DNA from: Thermoplasmata archaeon
GTDB lineage: Archaea; Thermoplasmatota; Thermoplasmata; Lutacidiplasmatales; UBA184
Reading direction: 5' to 3'
NCBI GenBank assembly: GCA_027315455.1
Contig: DAHUXZ010000004.1
Coordinates: 9,009-73,008 of the forward strand
DNA: 64,000 bases
Positions 900 to 37,354 of the stretch are shown here, in pieces. The position numbers and the translations under genes were made by a program. Every line of letters begins with the position of its first letter. The first letter of the stretch is position 1. Under the pieces are notes generated by a model. The model ran no database searches. It was not told the origin of the DNA and saw nothing but the letters and a program-made list of their open reading frames with translations.

Positions 900-1964
900 T
901 TAAGGTTTTGCGGCGCCGCTCTCGGCGGCGGAACCGCTGCCGCGGCGGCCGGACCAGCCGTAGGCCAGCAGGCCGTGGAAGGCCCCCCAGAGGGTCGCCC
1001 ACCGGCGGGGGATCTCGAGGACGGCCCATCGCAGCCCCGGGTAGCGGGCGTCCTCGCGCCGCCCCCAGACGGTGAGGCCGAGCGCGAGCGCCCCGAACCC
1101 CGCCCCGGCCAGCCCGAGGAGCCACAGCCCGAGCTCTCGGGTGGACGCCGGGACGAGGAGGACCGCCCCCGCGACGGCGAGGAGCGGGAGCGCGACGTAG
1201 GGGAAGAGCCGTTGGGCGCTCGCCTCGTAGGTGCTCCGGCGACGCCGCCAGACGACGAACCCGCCCTCGGCGTAGATCCGTTGCTTGCGCAGCAGGCCGA
1301 ACGTGGAGATGTCCGAGAAGTCGTGGTCGACGCTGGCCTCCGGGACGTAGACGCCCTTCCACCCGTTCTCGAGCGCGCGCACCGCGATCTCCTGGTCCTC
1401 GCTCGCGGCGCGCCGGTAGAGCGTCGTGTCGAGGAGACCCACGGACCGGAAGACCGCGGCGCGCCAGGCGGAGTTCCCCATCGGGAGCGCGTGGGGGTTC
1501 GCCCGGGCGACCCGGTCGTAGAAGCGGCGCAGGTAGCCGTCGTAGTAGCGCGCGCCGACGCTGCGGGCGGTCCCCTCGAGCGCCGGGGTGGGGCCGCCCG
1601 TGAACCCCACCCGGGGGTCGGCGAACGGGGCGAGCAGCGCCTTCAGCCAGCCGGGGGGGGCGATCTCGTCCGCGTCCAGGAAGGCGACGAACTCCCCCGA
1701 CGCGACGCGGAGGGCGATGTTGCGGCTCTCGGGGATGTTGCCGGGAGCCGGCAGGTGCCGGATCCTCGGGTCGCGGGCGGTGAAACCCGCCGTGATCCGC
1801 TCGACCCGGTCGTCCCCGCCGCCGTCGTCGACGAGGACCTCGTCGGCCGGCCGCTCCTGGTGAAGGAGGCTCTCGAGGGTCCGCGCAATGCGGGGGTCAC
1901 GCAGCACCGTAAGGATGACCGTGACGGTGCCGGGCACGACCGGACGGAGCGGGGGCGCCGCCAT
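900..1964 (-). CDS. Family 2 glycosyltransferase with C-terminal transmembrane segments
   Basis: GT-A/GT2 hallmarks are present (VTVILTV...VDDGG...FLDADE). I chose the ATG at 1964, just downstream of the upstream gene's stop at 1970-1972. The longer tracked ORF (to 2102) would overlap the epimerase. Confidence 0.8.
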   Translation of the reverse strand: MAAPPLRPVVPGTVTVILTVLRDPRIARTLESLLHQERPADEVLVDDGGGDDRVERITAGFTARDPRIRHLPAPGNIPESRNIALRVASGEFVAFLDADEIAPPGWLKALLAPFADPRVGFTGGPTPALEGTARSVGARYYDGYLRRFYDRVARANPHALPMGNSAWRAAVFRSVGLLDTTLYRRAASEDQEIAVRALENGWKGVYVPEASVDHDFSDISTFGLLRKQRIYAEGGFVVWRRRRSTYEASAQRLFPYVALPLLAVAGAVLLVPASTRELGLWLLGLAGAGFGALALGLTVWGRREDARYPGLRWAVLEIPRRWATLWGAFHGLLAYGWSGRRGSGSAAESGAAKP

Positions 1965-12238: not shown

Positions 12239-13198
12239 CTAACCGGTCCCCGGGGCGGCGGCCGCGCCGCCGCCCGCCGGACGGCCCCAGCGCGGGGGGA
12301 ACCGGGACGATTCGGCGAGGACGCGCTCGAGGTCGATCGCCCAGCCGTGCCGCACCCGGTCGAGCTCGCCGGAGGCGGCCCGCGCGCGGCCGATGGCGAG
12401 CGCCTCGCCGGCGGCCGTCGTGAGGACGACGTGGGCGCCCGCCGCGAAGGGGCGCGAGACGCCGAGCACTCCTCCCGCGGCGAGCCCGGCCCCGTGGACG
12501 ACGGCCGAGGCGGCCGGCTCCTTCAGGCGGACGAGCGGGAACTCGCGCAGGACCTCGTCGATCGGGTGGAGGAGGGTGAGGAGCGCCGCCGCGTCGCCCT
12601 CGCGGGCGCGCGCCGCGGCATCGGCGACGGCCGTGAGGGGCACGGCCATCGCCTCGGTGAACGGCCCGGTCCCCGTGCGCCGCAGCTCCTCGAGGTGACC
12701 CCCGACGCCCAACGCCTCGCCGAGGTCGACGGCGAGGGTGCGCACGTAGGTGCCGGAATCGCACGTCACGTCGATAAGGCAGCGCGTGCCGTCGAACTCG
12801 AATAGCTCGAGGCGGTGGATCGTCCGCACGCGCCGCTCGCGCTTGACGGCCGAGCGGACCGGTGGGGTCTGGAAGATCGGCCCGGTGAACTCCGCGACCG
12901 CCCGGGCCATCTCCTCGGCCGCGACGCGCCCGTGGAGGACGACGACGCCGATGTAGCGCTTCGGGAACTCGAGGAGGAGGGGGAGAAGCTTGAGCGCCGG
13001 GCCCACGCCGACCCAGAGGATCCCCGAGACGTTCGGGTCGAGGGTCCCGGCGTGCCCGGCCCGCTCGACCCCGAGGAGGTCGCGCGCCCACGCCGTGGCC
13101 TGGTGCGAGGTCGGCCCGCGCGGCTTGTCGACGAGGAGGAACGCTCCCGCGGCGAGTCGCTCGCGGACCGGCTCCGGGAACGCCGCGGGGGCGCTCAC
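12239..13198 (-). CDS. cbf5: H/ACA RNP pseudouridine synthase Cbf5 (TruB family with PUA domain)
   Basis: TruB catalytic block HAGTLDPNVSGIL and a C-terminal PUA-like region. Canonical position downstream of cmk in archaeal clusters. Confidence 0.9.
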   Translation of the reverse strand: MSAPAAFPEPVRERLAAGAFLLVDKPRGPTSHQATAWARDLLGVERAGHAGTLDPNVSGILWVGVGPALKLLPLLLEFPKRYIGVVVLHGRVAAEEMARAVAEFTGPIFQTPPVRSAVKRERRVRTIHRLELFEFDGTRCLIDVTCDSGTYVRTLAVDLGEALGVGGHLEELRRTGTGPFTEAMAVPLTAVADAAARAREGDAAALLTLLHPIDEVLREFPLVRLKEPAASAVVHGAGLAAGGVLGVSRPFAAGAHVVLTTAAGEALAIGRARAASGELDRVRHGWAIDLERVLAESSRFPPRWGRPAGGGAAAAPGTG

Positions 13199-13737
13199 GG
13201 GTCCCCCCGGTGGGCGCGGACGAAGTCGGCGAGCGCTTCCGCGACGGCCTCGGGCGGCCGCTGCGTCGAGTCGACGACGAAATCGGCCGGCTCCGCGTCG
13301 AGGTCGATATCGTAGTAGCGGCGGTAGCGCTCCCGCTCGCTCGCCTCGCGCGCGAGGGTCCGCGCGCGCGCCTCGGCGACGTTGAGCCCGTCGCGCCCGG
13401 CGAGGCGGCGGTAGCGCTCCTCGTCACGCGCGGTCACGACCAGGTAGAGGACGGGGAGGCCGCGGCGGCGCAAGAGCGCCCCGGTGACCCGGCCCTCGAG
13501 CAGGCGCGACGGGGCGGCGAGCCCCAGCATGCGCTCGTCCAGGTCCCGGTCGACCTCGGGATGGGCCTCGGCGTACCGGCCGAGCTCGGCGAGGGTGAGC
13601 CCCCGCTCGGCCGCCTCGGCGCGGAACAGCTCCCCCGCGCTCACGTAGTCGACGCCGAGGAGGGCCGCCGCGCGCCGCCCGGCCGTGGTCTTCCCGCTCC
13701 CGGGCGGGCCGGTGAGCGTCGCGATGCGGCCCGTCAC
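13195..13737 (-). CDS. cmk: Cytidylate kinase (archaeal type)
   Basis: P-loop GPPGSGKTT near the N-terminus. GTG at 13737 overlaps the upstream stop (GTGA). The tracked ORF extends spuriously to 13998. Confidence 0.85.
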   Translation of the reverse strand: MTGRIATLTGPPGSGKTTAGRRAAALLGVDYVSAGELFRAEAAERGLTLAELGRYAEAHPEVDRDLDERMLGLAAPSRLLEGRVTGALLRRRGLPVLYLVVTARDEERYRRLAGRDGLNVAEARARTLAREASERERYRRYYDIDLDAEPADFVVDSTQRPPEAVAEALADFVRAHRGDP

Positions 13738-29935: not shown

Positions 29936-30535
29936 TTGAGGCGGGCCCTCGCGAAGGTCCATCTGCGCGTCGCGGCGGTCGATGACGGGGCGTTCACCCG
30001 CCGCCACCGCAGCGCCCCCATCGCGGCGGTCATCGTCTCGGTGCCGGGGACGATCGAGGCGGTCCTCCTCGACCGGGTCGAGGTCGACGGGAACGACGCC
30101 ACGGATCGCATCGCGCACCTCCTGAAGGGCTCCGACCACCTCGAGGGGGTCCGCGCGGTGCTGCTCGACGGGGTCGTCGTCGGTGGCTTCAACGTCATCG
30201 ACCTCCCCGCGCTCGCCCGGCGCCTTAACCGTCCGCTCGTCGCCGTCACCCGGCGGCGGCCGGACCTTCCCCGCCTCCGGGCGGCGATCGGGAAGTACTT
30301 CCCGCAGGATGCGGCGCGACGGTGGCGCCGGCTCACCGCCCGACCGCTGTTCCGGGTGCCGACCGCCGGGGCCCCGATCTACGCCGCGTGCGTCGGCTGC
30401 ACCCGGGCCGAGGCGATCGAGCTCGTGCGCCGCACGACGGTCCGCGGCTTTTGGCCGGAGCCGCTCAAGGTCGCGCATCTCATCGCGAGCGCCGCCGGGA
30501 CCCCGGGCGCCCGACGCGTACGGACGAACGCTTAA
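29936..30535 (+). CDS. DUF99/UPF0215 family protein (endonuclease-V-like fold)
   Basis: AAVDDGAF..., VDGNDATD, LLDGVVVGGFNVIDL and PEPLKVAHLIASA blocks are typical of archaeal UPF0215. A non-ATG (TTG) start is inferred. Confidence 0.75.
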   Translation: MRRALAKVHLRVAAVDDGAFTRRHRSAPIAAVIVSVPGTIEAVLLDRVEVDGNDATDRIAHLLKGSDHLEGVRAVLLDGVVVGGFNVIDLPALARRLNRPLVAVTRRRPDLPRLRAAIGKYFPQDAARRWRRLTARPLFRVPTAGAPIYAACVGCTRAEAIELVRRTTVRGFWPEPLKVAHLIASAAGTPGARRVRTNA

Positions 30536-30560
30536 GGGGGCGGCCGGGGATGTGGAGGCC

Positions 30561-30668
30561 GGGCCTGTAGCTTAGCTTGGACAAAGTACTGGCCTTCTAA
30601 GCCAGCAATCTCGGGTTCAAACGCCGCCGGGGGACGGACCCTCGCGGGGGAGACTCCCGACAGGCCCG
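30561..30668 (+). tRNA. tRNA-Arg (anticodon UCU) interrupted by a 33-nt insertion in the T-loop
   Basis: Manual cloverleaf:
- Acceptor GGGCCTG/CAGGCCC.
- D-arm GCTT-AGCTTGGACA-AAGT.
- Anticodon arm CTGGC-CTTCTAA-GCCAG.
- Variable loop CAATC.
- T-stem TCGGG/CCCGA, all paired.
The T-loop TTCAAA is separated from T+CCCGA by 33 nt. No CCA is encoded. Confidence 0.85.
30622..30654 (+). other. Putative non-canonical tRNA intron (T-loop, position about 59/60)
   Basis: Sequence CGCCGCCGGGGGACGGACCCTCGCGGGGGAGAC. Removing it restores the 7-nt T-loop TTCAAAT. It contains an internal hairpin (GGGGG-ACGGA-CCCTC). Confidence 0.7.
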
Positions 30669-34219: not shown

Positions 34220-35389
34220 TCAGTTGACCCTCTCGAGCAGGTGGACGACGCTCGTCGCCCCCGTGCCTCCCACGTCGTGGAGGAGGCCGAGGTTCGTCGC
34301 GGGGGCCTGCCGTTCCTTCGCCTCGCCCCTCAGCTGGCGGACGACCTCGACGGCCTGGGCGACGCCCACGGCCCCGAACGGGCAGCCCTGCGCCTTGAGC
34401 CCACCGGACGGGTTGACGGTGAGCTTCTGGCCCAGGGCGAACTGGCCCGCGGCGAACGCGGGTCCGCTCTGGCCCTTCGGCACGAAGCCGAGGTCCTCGA
34501 GCGCGAGCAGCGCCGAGATCGTGAAGCCATCGTGGACCTCGGCGACCCCGACGTCCTCCGGCGCCCGCCGCGCCTGGGCGAACGCCCGCTTCGCGGCGAC
34601 GACCGTCGAATCGATCGTCGTGAGGTCCCGGCGATGATGGAGCGCCATCGTATCGCAGGCGACCTGGCTGGCCACGATGCGGATGGGGGTATCGGTGAAC
34701 TTGCGCGCCCGCTCGAGCGGGCCGAGGACGACCGCGGCCGCCCCGTCGGAGAGCGGGGCGCAGTCGAGCATCCCGAGCGGTTCCGCGACCGGCGTCGCCC
34801 GGAGGACCTGGTCGAGCGTGAGGCGGTTGCGGTAGTGGGCGTTCGGGTTCTTCGCCCCCATCTCGTGCGCCTGGACGGCGACGCTCGCGAGCGCCTCGCG
34901 GGTGGTGCCGTAGTCGTGCATGTGGCGACGGGCCATCATCGCCCAGAGGGCGGGCAGGGTCGCCCCGAAGACCTCCTCCCACTCGTGGTCCGCCGTCGAA
35001 TTGATGATGCGGTTCGCCTCGGTGTCGGCGACATCGGTGAGCTTCTCCGCCCCGCCGACGACGACGAAGTCGTGCGCCCCGCTCGCCACGGCGAGGTATC
35101 CCTGGTGGAGGGCGAGCGCCCCGGAGGCGCCGCCGCCCTCGATCCGGACCGCCTCGAGGTGGTGGCCGGCGAGGCCGGCGTAGTCGAGGATGAGGGGCGC
35201 GATGTGCTCCTGGTCGATCAGCGAGCCGCTGGCCATGTTGCCCATGTAGAGCGCGCCGAGGTCCCCGCTCGAGAGCTTCGCGTCGACGAGCGCCTGGAAG
35301 CCGGCTTCGATCCCGATCTCCCGGAACGACCGGTCCCAGAGCTCGCCGAACCGCGTCATCCCGGCGCCGAGGATCGCGACCTCGCGCAT
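34220..35389 (-). CDS. Archaeal-type acetoacetyl-CoA thiolase
   Basis: SCP-x-like thiolase fold. C-terminal block GGLKAQGCPFGAVGVAQAVEVVRQLRGEA. Confidence 0.9.
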   Translation of the reverse strand: MREVAILGAGMTRFGELWDRSFREIGIEAGFQALVDAKLSSGDLGALYMGNMASGSLIDQEHIAPLILDYAGLAGHHLEAVRIEGGGASGALALHQGYLAVASGAHDFVVVGGAEKLTDVADTEANRIINSTADHEWEEVFGATLPALWAMMARRHMHDYGTTREALASVAVQAHEMGAKNPNAHYRNRLTLDQVLRATPVAEPLGMLDCAPLSDGAAAVVLGPLERARKFTDTPIRIVASQVACDTMALHHRRDLTTIDSTVVAAKRAFAQARRAPEDVGVAEVHDGFTISALLALEDLGFVPKGQSGPAFAAGQFALGQKLTVNPSGGLKAQGCPFGAVGVAQAVEVVRQLRGEAKERQAPATNLGLLHDVGGTGATSVVHLLERVN

Positions 35390-37247: not shown

Positions 37248-37354
37248 TGGACCGGGCGAGAGTTTCCGGCGCGGGGGGAGGTCCCCCGCGTCCGTTTGAA
37301 CTCGCGGCCTCTACCTTGCCAAGGTAGCGATCTTCCGGACTGATCTACCGGCCC
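37248..37354 (-). tRNA. tRNA-Ala (anticodon GGC) interrupted by a 33-nt insertion in the T-loop
   Basis: Manual cloverleaf on the minus strand:
- Acceptor GGGCCGG/CCGGTCC, with the G3:U70 Ala identity pair and A73.
- D-arm GATC-AGTCCGGAA-GATC.
- Anticodon arm CTACC-TTGGCAA-GGTAG.
- T-stem GCGAG/CTCGC.
The T-loop TTCAAA is separated from T+CTCGC by 33 nt. Confidence 0.85.
37262..37294 (-). other. Putative non-canonical tRNA intron (T-loop, position about 59/60)
   Basis: Minus-strand sequence CGGACGCGGGGGACCTCCCCCCGCGCCGGAAAC. It has the same length and position as the tRNA-Arg insert and a 7-bp internal hairpin GCGGGGG/CCCCCGC. Confidence 0.7.

What the first reader, a model, noticed from the sequence alone, without database searches (positions are those of the whole stretch)
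30561..30668. tRNA-Arg(UCU) gene split by a 33-nt insertion inside the T-loop
All four arms of a canonical cloverleaf can be read directly from the sequence. The acceptor pairs 7/7, the T-stem 5/5 and the anticodon stem 5/5, and A14, G18G19 and A21 are in place. However, the T-loop TTCAAA (30616-30621) is separated from T+CCCGA+CAGGCCC by 33 nt (30622-30654). Removing the insert gives the common archaeal T-loop TTCAAAT.

By hand I can fold a relaxed bulge-helix-bulge. U54-U55-C56 pair with G-A-G near the 3' end of the insert. This helix is flanked by a 3-nt bulge AAC on one strand and a 3-nt bulge ACU abutting the T-stem on the other, and an internal hairpin closes the insert.

Archaeal tRNA introns are overwhelmingly at position 37/38. 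T-loop introns are known mainly from Thermoproteales-type crenarchaea. Standard gene finders without a non-canonical intron mode would miss this gene.
Basis: partly seen in the sequence, partly recalled or inferred. Interest (0 to 1): 0.7.

Follow-up and report, generated by a model that had tools for sequence, protein, structure and literature searches.

The report
Conserved T-loop intron in archaeal tRNA-Arg
This is a real arginine tRNA gene of an uncultured soil archaeon (class Thermoplasmata) interrupted by a short intron in its T-loop; the type of intron is known, but it is conserved across a whole clade where such introns had not been reported, and it hides the gene from standard tRNA finders.

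Summary
Window 30561-30668 (+) is a tRNA-Arg(UCU) gene whose T-loop is split after TTCAAA by 33 nt (30622-30654).

I found 98 distinct orthologous sequences in 114 loci. These include 75 of 80 species-representative Thermoplasmata MAGs, among them Lutacidiplasmatales/UBA184. All carry a 28-37 nt insert at the same site and none lacks it.

The exons are nearly invariant and the insert sequences diverge. The bulge-helix-bulge (BHB) geometry is nevertheless kept:
- T-stem;
- 3-nt bulge N-N-U60;
- central helix U54:R, U55:R, C56:G plus a conserved A57·G mismatch;
- 3-nt bulge A58-A59-N;
- an intron hairpin with compensatory changes in 7 of 8 pairs.

A BRE/TATA-like box lies at -35 to -24. ARAGORN finds nothing in the unspliced gene but recognises the spliced product.

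A second gene in the window, tRNA-Ala(GGC) at 37248-37354 (-), has the same kind of intron. So both tRNA genes in the window are interrupted at 59/60.

The host is a Thermoplasmata-class euryarchaeon, not a crenarchaeon. 59/60 is a known non-canonical intron site, so this is a new member of a known kind.

Splicing itself, the exact junction (59/60 or 58/59) and the endonuclease type are inferred, not shown.

The parts
30561..30668 (+). Complete tRNA-Arg(UCU) gene (pre-tRNA body, 108 nt including discriminator G; no encoded CCA)
   Evidence: Orthologues in 114 loci.
30561..30621 (+). 5' exon: nucleotides 1-59 (acceptor 5' strand, D arm, anticodon arm with TCT at 30596-30598, variable loop, T-stem 5' strand, T-loop U54-A59)
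   Evidence: Most of its columns are invariant across 98 sequences.
30622..30654 (+). 33-nt intron at position 59/60 (CGCCGCCGGGGGACGGACCCTCGCGGGGGAGAC)
   Evidence: The insert is 28-37 nt (mode 32) at the same site in all 98 distinct orthologues. It occurs once in the window.
30655..30668 (+). 3' exon: U60, T-stem 3' strand CCCGA, acceptor 3' strand CAGGCCC, discriminator G
   Evidence: Invariant across orthologues except the discriminator, which is G in 94 and A in 4.
30616..30619 (+). Exon strand of the central BHB helix H: U54, U55, C56, A57
   Evidence: These pair with 30652, 30651 and 30650. A57 faces G30649. The three pairs are kept in 98/98 sequences and A57 is never Watson-Crick paired.
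30649..30652 (+). Intron strand of the central helix H: G(n-5), G(n-4), A(n-3), G(n-2)
   Evidence: Across the clade n-2 is R in 98/98 (G 51, A 47), n-3 is R in 98/98, n-4 is G in 98/98 and n-5 is G in 97/98.
30620..30622 (+). 5' three-nucleotide bulge A58-A59-C(i1); predicted 5' cleavage between 30621 and 30622
   Evidence: This is the canonical BHB register. i1 is G in 90/98 relatives and C here. Cleavage is inferred.
30653..30655 (+). 3' three-nucleotide bulge A-C-U60, directly abutting the T stem; predicted 3' cleavage between 30654 and 30655
   Evidence: n-1 and n vary freely in relatives (nine different dinucleotides), whereas n-2 is always a purine. Cleavage is inferred.
30623..30648 (+). 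Intron hairpin (helix h'): G·G at 30623/30648, then C3:G26 to C6:G23, a C7 bulge, G8:C22 to G12:C18, and loop ACGGA
   Evidence: minimum-free-energy fold. In relatives the helix starts exactly at i2:(n-6), which is G:C in 96/98. 7 of 8 pairs show changes on both sides.
30526..30537 (+). Putative archaeal promoter: GAA (BRE-like, -35 to -33) and TTAAGG (TATA-like, -29 to -24). It overlaps the stop codon of the upstream Endo_dU gene.
   Evidence: In columns anchored on tRNA position +1 across 97 loci, T is present in 72-76 at -29/-28, A in 66-71 at -27/-26 and A in 67-69 at -34/-33, within DNA of about 72% GC. Function is inferred.
29936..30535 (+). Upstream neighbour: Endo_dU (DUF99) gene, used as the synteny anchor
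   Evidence: Pfam PF01949, E = 5e-50. Synteny is conserved in relatives.
37248..37354 (-). Second interrupted gene of the same kind: tRNA-Ala(GGC) with G3:U70. 5' exon 37354-37295, 33-nt intron 37294-37262 at 59/60, 3' exon 37261-37248. TTATGT box at -32 to -27.
   Evidence: Rfam gives 23.4 bits, below the gathering score. ARAGORN finds nothing before and tRNA-Ala(ggc) after in-silico splicing. Orthologues with the intron are in L095, L115 and L121.

Best explanation
Window 30561-30668 is the functional tRNA-Arg(UCU) gene of an uncultured, high-GC soil Thermoplasmata archaeon. It is interrupted between nucleotides 59 and 60 by a 33-nt archaeal-type intron.

Proposed pathway (steps are shown or inferred as marked):
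1. The gene is transcribed from a BRE/TATA-like promoter about 25-35 nt upstream (inferred from conservation).
2. The transcript folds into a cloverleaf in which the T stem (helix h) is extended by a bulge-helix-bulge motif. The pairings are shown to be conserved:
   - a 3-nt bulge N-N-U60;
   - a central helix of U54:R, U55:R and C56:G plus an A57·G apposition;
   - a 3-nt bulge A58-A59-N;
   - the intron's own GC-rich hairpin (helix h').
3. The archaeal splicing endonuclease EndA cuts two nucleotides into each bulge, after A59 and before U60 (inferred from the established BHB mechanism).
4. An RtcB-type ligase joins the exons, giving a 75-nt tRNA with the usual archaeal T loop UUCAAAU (inferred).
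5. CCA is added afterwards, because it is not encoded (inferred).

On the exon side the BHB is built only from the T stem and the near-universal T-loop bases. Such an intron therefore fits any tRNA without compensatory exon changes. This is consistent with the same kind of intron sitting in tRNA-Ala(GGC) 6.7 kb away.

The intron is ancient in this clade, which includes Lutacidiplasmatales/UBA184. It is retained in every sampled member.
For: Anatomy.

Host: archaeal L3, SecY/Sec61 and Endo_dU genes. The window is MAG GCA_027315875.1. Homologues are named Thermoplasmata archaeon. Relatives include the Lutacidiplasmatales MAGs AcS5-107, SubAcS15-120 and UBA184.

Conservation:
- 114 of 123 loci, giving 98 distinct sequences, have the insert at the same site, 28-37 nt long.
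- 0 loci are intron-less. This includes 31/31 metagenome hits to a pattern that ends at TTCAAA and so would also match an uninterrupted gene.

Structure:
- The central-helix pairs are kept in 98/98 sequences.
- i2:(n-6) is G:C in 96/98.
- The bulge bases n-1 and n vary freely.
- RNAalifold, given no guidance, returns the cloverleaf across the insert plus the hairpin from i2:(n-6).
- In the count of structure pairs, 98.0% of cells are paired, against 94.0% in shuffles (0/500 shuffles reach it) and 31-55% in slid registers. 7 of 8 hairpin pairs have changes on both sides.

Expression: a conserved GAA...TTAAGG box at -35 to -24.

Product: ARAGORN calls tRNA-Arg(tct) only after the insert is removed.

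Chance: 1 hit in 300 simulated windows against 2 in the real one.

Precedent: 59/60 is a documented intron site with BHB motifs in ARMAN-2 and was cleaved in vitro (PMC3239211). It is listed among known non-canonical sites (PMC4090602).
Against: - No RNA data exist. Transcription, cleavage and ligation are all inferred.
- The fourth position of the central helix is a conserved A·G mismatch rather than a base pair, so the motif is not a textbook 3-4-3 BHB.
- In the window's own copy the first hairpin pair is G·G, and i1 = C could pair with G(n-5). That would change the 5' bulge to A57-A58-A59.
- The nearest-neighbour model puts the BHB conformation a median 3.2 kcal/mol above the unconstrained fold.
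- The endonuclease of this clade was not identified. If it is the alpha'2 type reported for Thermoplasmata and other 'Cluster II' Euryarchaeota (PMC5829648), published work says that type needs a strict BHB. It also barely cleaves a relaxed T-loop intron (PMC3488258).
- A slipped register (U54:n-3, U55:n-4, C56:n-5, with 4-nt bulges) pairs equally well and would place the junction at 58/59.
Confidence: 0.85

Rival explanations
1. It is the same intron, but spliced one position earlier (58/59). The central helix would be the slipped register U54:(n-3), U55:(n-4), C56:(n-5), flanked by two 4-nt bulges. The cuts would fall after A58 and after n-1. The mature T loop would then be UUCAA-N-U, which in this window is UUCAACU.
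For: - The slipped register is fully pairable: 98/98, 98/98 and 97/98.
- It would explain why n-5 is an almost invariant G.
- The spliced product in this register is also accepted as a tRNA by ARAGORN.
- Position 59 is not strongly conserved in tRNAs generally (own knowledge).
Against: - It leaves unexplained why n-2 is always a purine and why n-4 is always G rather than R.
- It needs a 3-bp helix with 4-nt bulges, which does not fit the 3-4-3 spacing between the two active sites described for archaeal EndA (PMC3239211).
- It is less stable than the canonical register in 98/98 sequences, though only by about 0.5 kcal/mol.
- Nucleotide 59 of the mature tRNA would then vary (C 72, G 10, A 10, T 6) in a tRNA body that is otherwise almost invariant.
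Confidence: 0.1
2. It is a disrupted tRNA pseudogene, or the scar of a mobile-element insertion. The 33 nt would be junk that inactivated the gene.
For: - Gene finders reject or mis-model the locus.
- One relative (L053) does show this tRNA cut off after 19 nt next to lower-GC DNA, so the locus can be hit by rearrangements.
Against: - The exons are almost invariant, with perfect stems, across 98 distinct sequences from about 75 species-level genomes, while the insert itself diverges. That is purifying selection on a working gene.
- The insert keeps its BHB geometry through length changes of 28-37 nt, with compensatory substitutions.
- No uninterrupted copy was found.
- A promoter-like box is conserved upstream.
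- The insert is not repeated in the window and has no match in viral contigs.
Confidence: 0.02
3. The insert is transcribed but never removed, so the tRNA works with a 40-nt T loop carrying an extra hairpin.
For: - The insert is conserved in position and folds into a stable hairpin.
- No RNA data exclude it.
Against: - The T loop must form the U54-A58 reverse-Hoogsteen pair and dock with G18/G19 of the D loop. Both G18/G19 and the T-loop bases are perfectly conserved here, and a 33-nt hairpin between positions 59 and 60 would disturb that elbow (own knowledge of tRNA structure).
- The conserved features are exactly those of a splicing motif: two 3-nt bulges a fixed distance apart, with free sequence in the bulge tips and the hairpin loop. 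They do not look like a functional appendage.
- I know of no cellular tRNA with such an expansion.
Confidence: 0.03

Closest known systems
ARMAN-2 (Candidatus Micrarchaeum acidiphilum) pre-tRNA-Pro(GGG) and pre-tRNA-Cys(GCA) introns at 59/60 (PMC3239211)
   Same: - The insertion point in the T loop (59/60) is the same.
- The BHB is built in the same way, from the T stem, T-loop bases and the intron.
- The tRNA-Pro(GGG) 59/60 intron is described as forming a strict hBHBh' motif, close to the clade consensus here.
- The ARMAN-2 tRNA-Cys intron was shown to be cleaved in vitro.
   Different: - ARMAN-2 is a DPANN archaeon with a special three-unit epsilon2 endonuclease of broad specificity, and 56% of its tRNA genes are disrupted at many positions.
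- Its tRNA-Cys intron is 13 nt with a relaxed hBH motif.
- Here the host is a Thermoplasmata archaeon and the intron is 28-37 nt with both bulges.
- The central helix here carries a conserved A57·G mismatch.
- The endonuclease here is unknown.
Non-canonical tRNA introns of Crenarchaeota (Thermoproteales, Aeropyrum pernix), cleaved by (alpha-beta)2 EndA (PMC3241643, PMC4090602)
   Same: - They are short protein-spliced introns at positions other than 37/38, and 59/60 is among the listed sites.
- They are recognised through a BHB-type motif.
- Standard gene finders miss such genes.
   Different: - Those lineages carry introns at many different positions, often several per gene and often with relaxed HBh'/hBH motifs.
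- In Thermoproteales they show signs of recent transposition.
- Here both observed introns are at one site and keep both bulges.
- They are old (clade-wide) and show no elevated similarity between tRNA-Arg and tRNA-Ala introns of one genome.
Canonical 37/38 BHB introns of Euryarchaeota (for example tRNA-Trp and tRNA-Met), cleaved by alpha4 or alpha'2 EndA
   Same: - The architecture is the same (h, 3-nt bulge, 4-position helix, 3-nt bulge, h'), with cleavage predicted two nucleotides into each bulge.
- The host belongs to the same broad group of archaea.
- Orthologous introns are conserved over long periods.
   Different: - The position differs: the T loop instead of the anticodon loop.
- Reviews state that euryarchaeal tRNA genes have introns only at the canonical position (PMC4090602).
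- They also state that Korarchaeum was the only alpha2-type archaeon with non-canonical introns (PMC4033280).
Korarchaeum cryptofilum: alpha2-type EndA together with non-canonical introns (PMC4033280, PMC3239211)
   Same: If this clade has the alpha'2 enzyme, as reported for Thermoplasmata, it would be a second case of a dimeric EndA coexisting with non-canonical introns.
   Different: - The korarchaeal enzyme carries the crenarchaeal-type specific loop and is thought to derive from an alpha-beta fusion.
- Nothing is known about the enzyme here.

Membership tests
Archaeal BHB (protein-spliced) tRNA intron at a non-canonical position (59/60) | Removing the insert restores a canonical cloverleaf with standard conserved bases | tested here: met
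   The product is 75 nt with acceptor 7/7, D stem 4 pairs, anticodon stem 5/5, T stem 5/5 and T loop UUCAAAU. ARAGORN calls tRNA-Arg(tct) only on the spliced sequence.
Archaeal BHB (protein-spliced) tRNA intron at a non-canonical position (59/60) | Exon-side helix h of at least 2 bp next to the 3' bulge | tested here: met
   The T stem (5 bp) directly abuts the bulge A-C-U60. It is invariant in 98/98 sequences.
Archaeal BHB (protein-spliced) tRNA intron at a non-canonical position (59/60) | Two 3-nt bulges on opposite strands separated by a 4-bp helix (strict 3-4-3) | tested here: inconclusive
   The bulges and their spacing fit. The central helix has 3 conserved pairs (98/98 each), but its fourth position is A57·G in 97/98 and never a standard pair. 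A slipped 4-3-4 register is also possible.
Archaeal BHB (protein-spliced) tRNA intron at a non-canonical position (59/60) | Intron-side helix h' closing the 5' bulge | tested here: met
   The hairpin starts at i2:(n-6), which is G:C in 96/98. 7 of 8 pairs show compensatory changes. In the window itself the first pair is G·G and the helix starts one pair further in.
Archaeal BHB (protein-spliced) tRNA intron at a non-canonical position (59/60) | Structure, not sequence, of the intron is conserved among orthologues | tested here: met
   There are 98 distinct sequences with inserts of 28-37 nt and variable hairpin loops. 98.0% of cells are paired, against 31-55% in slid registers and 0/500 shuffles.
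Archaeal BHB (protein-spliced) tRNA intron at a non-canonical position (59/60) | Cleavage by the splicing endonuclease EndA and ligation by RtcB, giving a mature tRNA and a free or circular intron | not testable with these tools
   No RNA or enzymatic data are available. This step is inferred from the motif.
Archaeal BHB (protein-spliced) tRNA intron at a non-canonical position (59/60) | Host genome encodes EndA of a type able to cut this motif | not tested
   No EndA domain was found among the 40 window ORFs scanned. PDB bait searches did not give a usable query for this clade. The literature assigns alpha'2 to Thermoplasmata and other Cluster II Euryarchaeota (PMC5829648).
Functional tRNA-Arg(UCU) gene | Anticodon UCU in a 7-nt loop flanked by U33 and a purine at 37, with A20 in the D loop | tested here: met
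   The loop is CTTCTAA and the D loop is AGCTTGGACA. The loop is invariant in 98/98. A20 as an Arg identity element is from my own knowledge.
Functional tRNA-Arg(UCU) gene | Under purifying selection and equipped with a promoter | tested here: met
   63 columns are invariant, almost all of them exonic. A BRE/TATA-like box is conserved at -35 to -24. Transcription itself is not shown.
tRNA pseudogene or integration-disrupted tRNA | Decay of stems and conserved bases; patchy presence among relatives; an intact paralogue elsewhere | tested here: not met
   There is no decay in 98 sequences and the insert is present in every locus that has the gene. No intron-less copy appeared among 31 pattern hits or 80 syntenic loci.
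Self-splicing group I intron in a tRNA gene (bacterial/organellar type) | An intron of roughly 200 nt or more with the P1-P9 ribozyme core, usually in the anticodon loop | tested here: not met
   The insert is 33 nt and sits in the T loop. There is no Rfam intron hit in the window.

The most novel reading that the evidence does not exclude
Lutacidiplasmatales and their relatives, a whole order-level clade of soil Thermoplasmata, may carry 59/60 T-loop introns in a large share of their tRNA genes. Both tRNA genes in this window have one. The introns would be processed by an alpha'2-type (or a so far undescribed) endonuclease that accepts a BHB variant with a conserved A57·G in the central helix.

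That would break the textbook link 'alpha4/alpha'2 euryarchaea = canonical 37/38 introns only'. It would also show single-site intron proliferation made possible by the universal T-loop sequence. Finally, it would mean that tRNA counts for these MAGs are systematically too low whenever a finder without a non-canonical intron mode is used.
Probability: 0.3. Interest if true: 0.6.

Novelty: new member of a known kind. Interest (0 to 1): 0.4.

Why it matters
Practical: tRNA genes of this widespread acidic-soil clade are invisible to ARAGORN or mis-modelled by it, and they sit at or below threshold for Rfam's tRNA model. This affects tRNA counts, MAG quality calls and codon-usage inferences.

Biological: published reviews state that euryarchaeal tRNA introns sit only at 37/38. 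They also tie non-canonical introns to endonucleases of broad specificity. Here a clade-wide intron at 59/60, retaining both bulges, occurs in Thermoplasmata, and a second tRNA carries the same kind. This gives a natural test of whether an alpha'2-type enzyme handles BHB motifs outside the anticodon loop, and of whether an A·G position in the central helix is tolerated or required.

It also illustrates why 59/60 recurs as an intron site. The exon half of the motif consists only of the T stem and near-universal T-loop bases.

Tried and rejected
1. ARAGORN and Rfam on the window. ARAGORN finds nothing. Rfam mis-models tRNA-Arg at 33.8 bits and leaves tRNA-Ala below threshold at 23.4 bits. In relatives, ARAGORN calls truncated or wrong tRNA-Arg models (L007, L008). 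With introns allowed it produces implausible models with introns of up to about 2 kb.

2. Repeat or mobile-element origin of the insert. It occurs once in the window. Viral-contig scans with the tRNA 5' end, and with the uninterrupted T arm plus 3' end, gave 0 hits.

3. Recent intron copying between tRNA-Arg and tRNA-Ala. Same-genome intron similarity is not higher than cross-genome similarity.

4. Looking for the splicing endonuclease. None was found among the 40 window ORFs scanned with Pfam. PDB bait searches confirmed my remembered M. jannaschii EndA sequence (1a79). They never printed the Thermoplasma enzyme (2ohc), so I had no suitable query. I chose not to spend a whole-database protein search that cannot be restricted to this clade.

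5. A kink-turn reading of the conserved A·G. Rejected by inspection, because the mismatch lies 5' of the bulge rather than 3' of it.

6. C/D-box guide RNA in the intron, as in haloarchaeal tRNA-Trp. Rejected: the intron is only 28-37 nt, has no C or D boxes and has a variable loop.

7. Loci without the gene.
   - L003-L006, L042 and L064 are cut off by contig ends. L042 already shows the start of the insert.
   - L032 and L081 have lost the synteny.
   - L053 is rearranged.

8. Literature searches for T-loop introns in Thermoplasmatota or Lutacidiplasmatales found no description of them.
Full report
**1. Observation**

- The acceptor stem is 7/7 (GGGCCTG with CAGGCCC).
- The D arm has A14, G18, G19, A20 and A21.
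- The anticodon stem is 5/5, around the loop CTTCTAA (anticodon TCT at 30596-30598).
- The variable loop is 5 nt.
- The T stem is 5/5 (TCGGG at 30611-30615 with CCCGA at 30656-30660).
- The T loop reads TTCAAA, then 33 nt (30622-30654), then T.

Removing the 33 nt gives a 75-nt tRNA with the T loop UUCAAAU.

ARAGORN reports no tRNA in the window. Rfam's tRNA model reaches only 33.8 bits over 30564-30631, because it uses the start of the insert as a false T arm and acceptor.

As a chance control I ran a scanner that requires perfect acceptor, anticodon and T stems plus TTCRA. It fires twice in the real window. It fires once in total across 300 simulated windows with the same dinucleotide composition.

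**2. Host and surroundings**

The window is 72.5% G+C and is archaeal.
- It carries the large ribosomal-protein operon (L3, L2, S19, L22, S3, S8, L6, L30) and SecY with a Sec61 plug.
- It also carries Cbf5, DnaK, citrate synthase and other housekeeping genes.
- It is identical to a contig of NCBI MAG GCA_027315875.1.

The tRNA lies 25 nt downstream of an Endo_dU (DUF99) gene. It is 2 nt from the stop codon of a convergent 358-aa hypothetical gene. Other ORFs overlapping the tRNA are alternative-frame artefacts of GC-rich DNA.

Homologues of the Endo_dU protein are named 'Thermoplasmata archaeon'. The syntenic relatives include UBA184 and the AcS and SubAcS genomes. These are the Lutacidiplasmatales (TMEG) of acidic soils, with about 69% GC (PMC9287336). 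The host is therefore a Thermoplasmata-class euryarchaeon, not a Thermoproteales-type crenarchaeon.

**3. Comparative evidence**

I collected related loci in three ways.
- Look-ups of Endo_dU homologues.
- One scan of species-representative genomes anchored on Endo_dU, giving 80 loci.
- One metagenome scan with the pattern CCTTCTAAGSCNGCAANCTCGGGTTCAAA, giving 31 loci. This pattern stops before the insert, so it would also match an uninterrupted gene.

A structure-aware scanner found a tRNA-Arg(UCU) with a perfect acceptor, anticodon stem and T stem in 114 of 123 loci. Every one has a 28-37 nt insert (mode 32) after TTCAAA. There are 98 distinct sequences and no intron-less copy.

The nine loci without a hit are explained as follows.
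- L003-L006, L042 and L064 are cut off by contig ends. L042 already shows the start of the insert.
- L032 and L081 have lost the synteny.
- L053 is rearranged.

The exons are almost invariant and the inserts differ widely in sequence.

**4. The splicing motif**

I used coordinates anchored on the two intron ends, so nothing was fitted to a structure.
- The base opposite U54 (n-2) is a purine in 98/98 sequences (G 51, A 47).
- The base opposite U55 (n-3) is a purine in 98/98.
- The base opposite C56 (n-4) is G in 98/98.
- The last two intron bases (n-1, n) occur as nine different dinucleotides.
- The hairpin always begins at i2:(n-6), which is G:C in 96/98.

This is the canonical BHB layout. 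The T stem is helix h. The 3' bulge is N-N-U60. The central helix has four positions. The 5' bulge is A58-A59-i1. The intron hairpin is helix h'. The predicted cuts fall two nucleotides into each bulge, after A59 and before U60.

MAFFT placed all gaps in the middle of the insert. RNAalifold on that alignment, given no guidance, recovered the cloverleaf across the insert and the hairpin from i2:(n-6).

The formal count gave 98.0% of cells paired. Shuffles gave 94.0%, and 0 of 500 reached the observed value. Slid registers gave 31-55%. Changes on both sides occur in 7 of the 8 hairpin pairs.

**5. Departures from the textbook motif**

Three features depart from the standard BHB.
- The fourth position of the central helix is A57 opposite G in 97/98 sequences. 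It is never a standard pair.
- A slipped register also pairs fully: U54:(n-3), U55:(n-4), C56:(n-5), with 4-nt bulges. It would place the junction at 58/59 and give the T loop UUCAA-N-U.
- In the window's own copy the first hairpin pair is G·G and the first intron base is C rather than the usual G.

I favour the canonical register for four reasons.
- It explains the purine at n-2 and the invariant G at n-4.
- It keeps the 3-4-3 spacing.
- It is slightly more stable in all 98 sequences.
- It gives an invariant A59.

Sequence alone cannot settle this. The nearest-neighbour model puts the BHB conformation a median 3.2 kcal/mol above the free fold. That is plausible for a motif the enzyme clamps, but it is not positive evidence.

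**6. Expression and product**

Upstream columns were anchored on tRNA position +1 across 97 loci. In DNA of about 72% GC, they show a conserved TTAAGG at -29 to -24 and AA at -34/-33. This is the spacing of an archaeal BRE/TATA promoter. In the window it lies at 30526-30537.

ARAGORN rejects the unspliced sequence. It calls a clean tRNA-Arg(tct) once the insert is removed, in either register.

**7. A second interrupted tRNA**

A weak Rfam hit in locus L095 led me to a tRNA-Ala(GGC) with a 28-nt insert at the same T-loop position.

A generic scanner then found the orthologue in the window itself, on the minus strand at 37354 to 37248.
- It has the G3:U70 identity pair.
- Its T stem is GCGAG/CTCGC.
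- Its T loop reads TTCAAA, then 33 nt (37294-37262), then T.
- It has the same intron ends (G at i2, C-G-G-A-A at n-6 to n-2).
- It has a TTATGT box at -32 to -27.

ARAGORN misses it and Rfam gives 23.4 bits, below threshold. After in-silico splicing it is called tRNA-Ala(ggc). Orthologues with the intron occur in L095, L115 and L121.

So both tRNA genes in this 64-kb window carry a 59/60 intron. No ordinary uninterrupted tRNA gene occurs in the 565 kb of clade DNA I hold. That DNA is one syntenic region sampled many times, not a genome census. tRNA-Arg and tRNA-Ala introns of the same genome are not unusually similar, so I see no sign of recent copying.

**8. Mechanism**

What is shown: the anatomy, its conservation, the covariation, the promoter-like box, and the absence of an intron-less copy.

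What is inferred from the established archaeal pathway:
- cleavage by EndA at the two bulges;
- ligation by RtcB;
- CCA addition;
- T-loop modification only after splicing.

The endonuclease of this clade was not identified. The literature reports only alpha'2 enzymes in 'Cluster II' Euryarchaeota, which include the Thermoplasmata (PMC5829648). It says alpha4 and alpha'2 enzymes need a strict 3-4-3 hBHBh' motif (PMC3239211, PMC3488258). The clade-wide retention of both bulges and both flanking helices is what one would expect if such a strict enzyme does the work.

On the exon side the motif uses only the T stem and near-universal T-loop bases. An intron at 59/60 therefore fits any tRNA. That may explain why this site recurs in distant archaea and in two tRNAs here.

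A protective role against integrases that target tRNA 3' halves (Randau and Söll, discussed in PMC4090602) is possible. My data do not support it: the two viral-contig scans were empty.

**9. Comparison with what is known**

59/60 is an established non-canonical intron site.
- It is listed in PMC4090602.
- ARMAN-2 tRNA-Cys and tRNA-Pro have introns there, and the tRNA-Cys intron was cleaved in vitro (PMC3239211).

The kind of element is therefore known.

What is not described in the literature I could search is such introns in Thermoplasmatota. Reviews state that euryarchaeal tRNA genes have introns only at the canonical position (PMC4090602). They also state that Korarchaeum was the only alpha2-type archaeon with non-canonical introns (PMC4033280).

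I file this as a new member of a known kind. It adds a lineage, shows clade-wide conservation, and has a small structural peculiarity (the A57·G).

**10. Verdict**

- Confidence that this is a genuine, spliced BHB intron in a functional tRNA-Arg(UCU) gene: about 0.85.
- Within that, I put about 0.75-0.8 on the 59/60 junction rather than 58/59.
- Interest is moderate (0.4). It would rise if a whole-genome tRNA census shows many such introns, or if the endonuclease proves to be a plain alpha'2 type.

Noticed in passing
window 37248-37354 (- strand): A second interrupted tRNA gene: tRNA-Ala(GGC) with a 33-nt intron (37294-37262) at the same 59/60 T-loop position and the same BHB ends. ARAGORN misses it and Rfam scores it below the gathering threshold (23.4 bits). 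Orthologues with the intron are in L095, L115 and L121. Both tRNA genes in the window are therefore T-loop-interrupted.
   Followed up: yes
window 30622 and 37294: The first intron base is C in both window introns. It is G in 90 of the 98 distinct tRNA-Arg introns and in the tRNA-Ala introns of the three other genomes. C could pair with the conserved G at n-5 and shift the 5' bulge to A57-A58-A59. This may be co-evolution with the enzyme, gene conversion or coincidence.
   Followed up: partly
window 30649 (and position n-5 in all relatives): The base facing A57 in the central BHB helix is G in 97/98 tRNA-Arg introns and 4/4 tRNA-Ala introns. It is never the U that would make a Watson-Crick pair. 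I have no explanation for why this A·G apposition is conserved.
   Followed up: partly
L053 2121-2140 and downstream (Lutacidiplasmatales MAG AcS1-36, contig JAKIVU010000001.1): Only the first 19 nt of the tRNA-Arg gene are present next to Endo_dU, followed by lower-GC DNA with no rest of the tRNA within 1.4 kb. This may be an integration or rearrangement inside the D loop.
   Followed up: partly
L003-L006 (Logan assemblies SRR10333326, SRR13766252, SRR10333328, SRR10333329): Four short-read contigs all break inside the 5' half of this tRNA, three of them after ...GGACAAAGTAC(T). This is most simply explained by co-occurring strains that differ at the first variable anticodon-stem pair (T30:A40 or C30:G40), which splits the assembly graph.
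   Followed up: partly
L007 2625-2703 and L008 2650-2723: In two relatives ARAGORN does report a 'tRNA-Arg (tct)', but with wrong boundaries (79 and 74 nt). It builds a T arm and acceptor from intron sequence. Automated annotation of these genomes may therefore contain mis-delimited tRNA genes.
   Followed up: partly
window 12239-13423 (- strand): A Cbf5-type pseudouridine synthase (TruB_N, TruB_C_2 and PUA domains) is encoded 17 kb from the tRNA, at the end of the ribosomal-protein/SecY cluster. This is ordinary archaeal gene order. I mention it only because Cbf5 can make the T-loop pseudouridine at position 55.
   Followed up: no
window 900-959 (-) and 34274-34331 (+): There are sub-threshold Rfam matches to an H/ACA sRNA (PyrR209, 27.7 bits, gathering score 42) and a C/D-box sRNA (sR45, 21.9 bits, gathering score 40). 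They are probably chance matches in GC-rich DNA.
   Followed up: no
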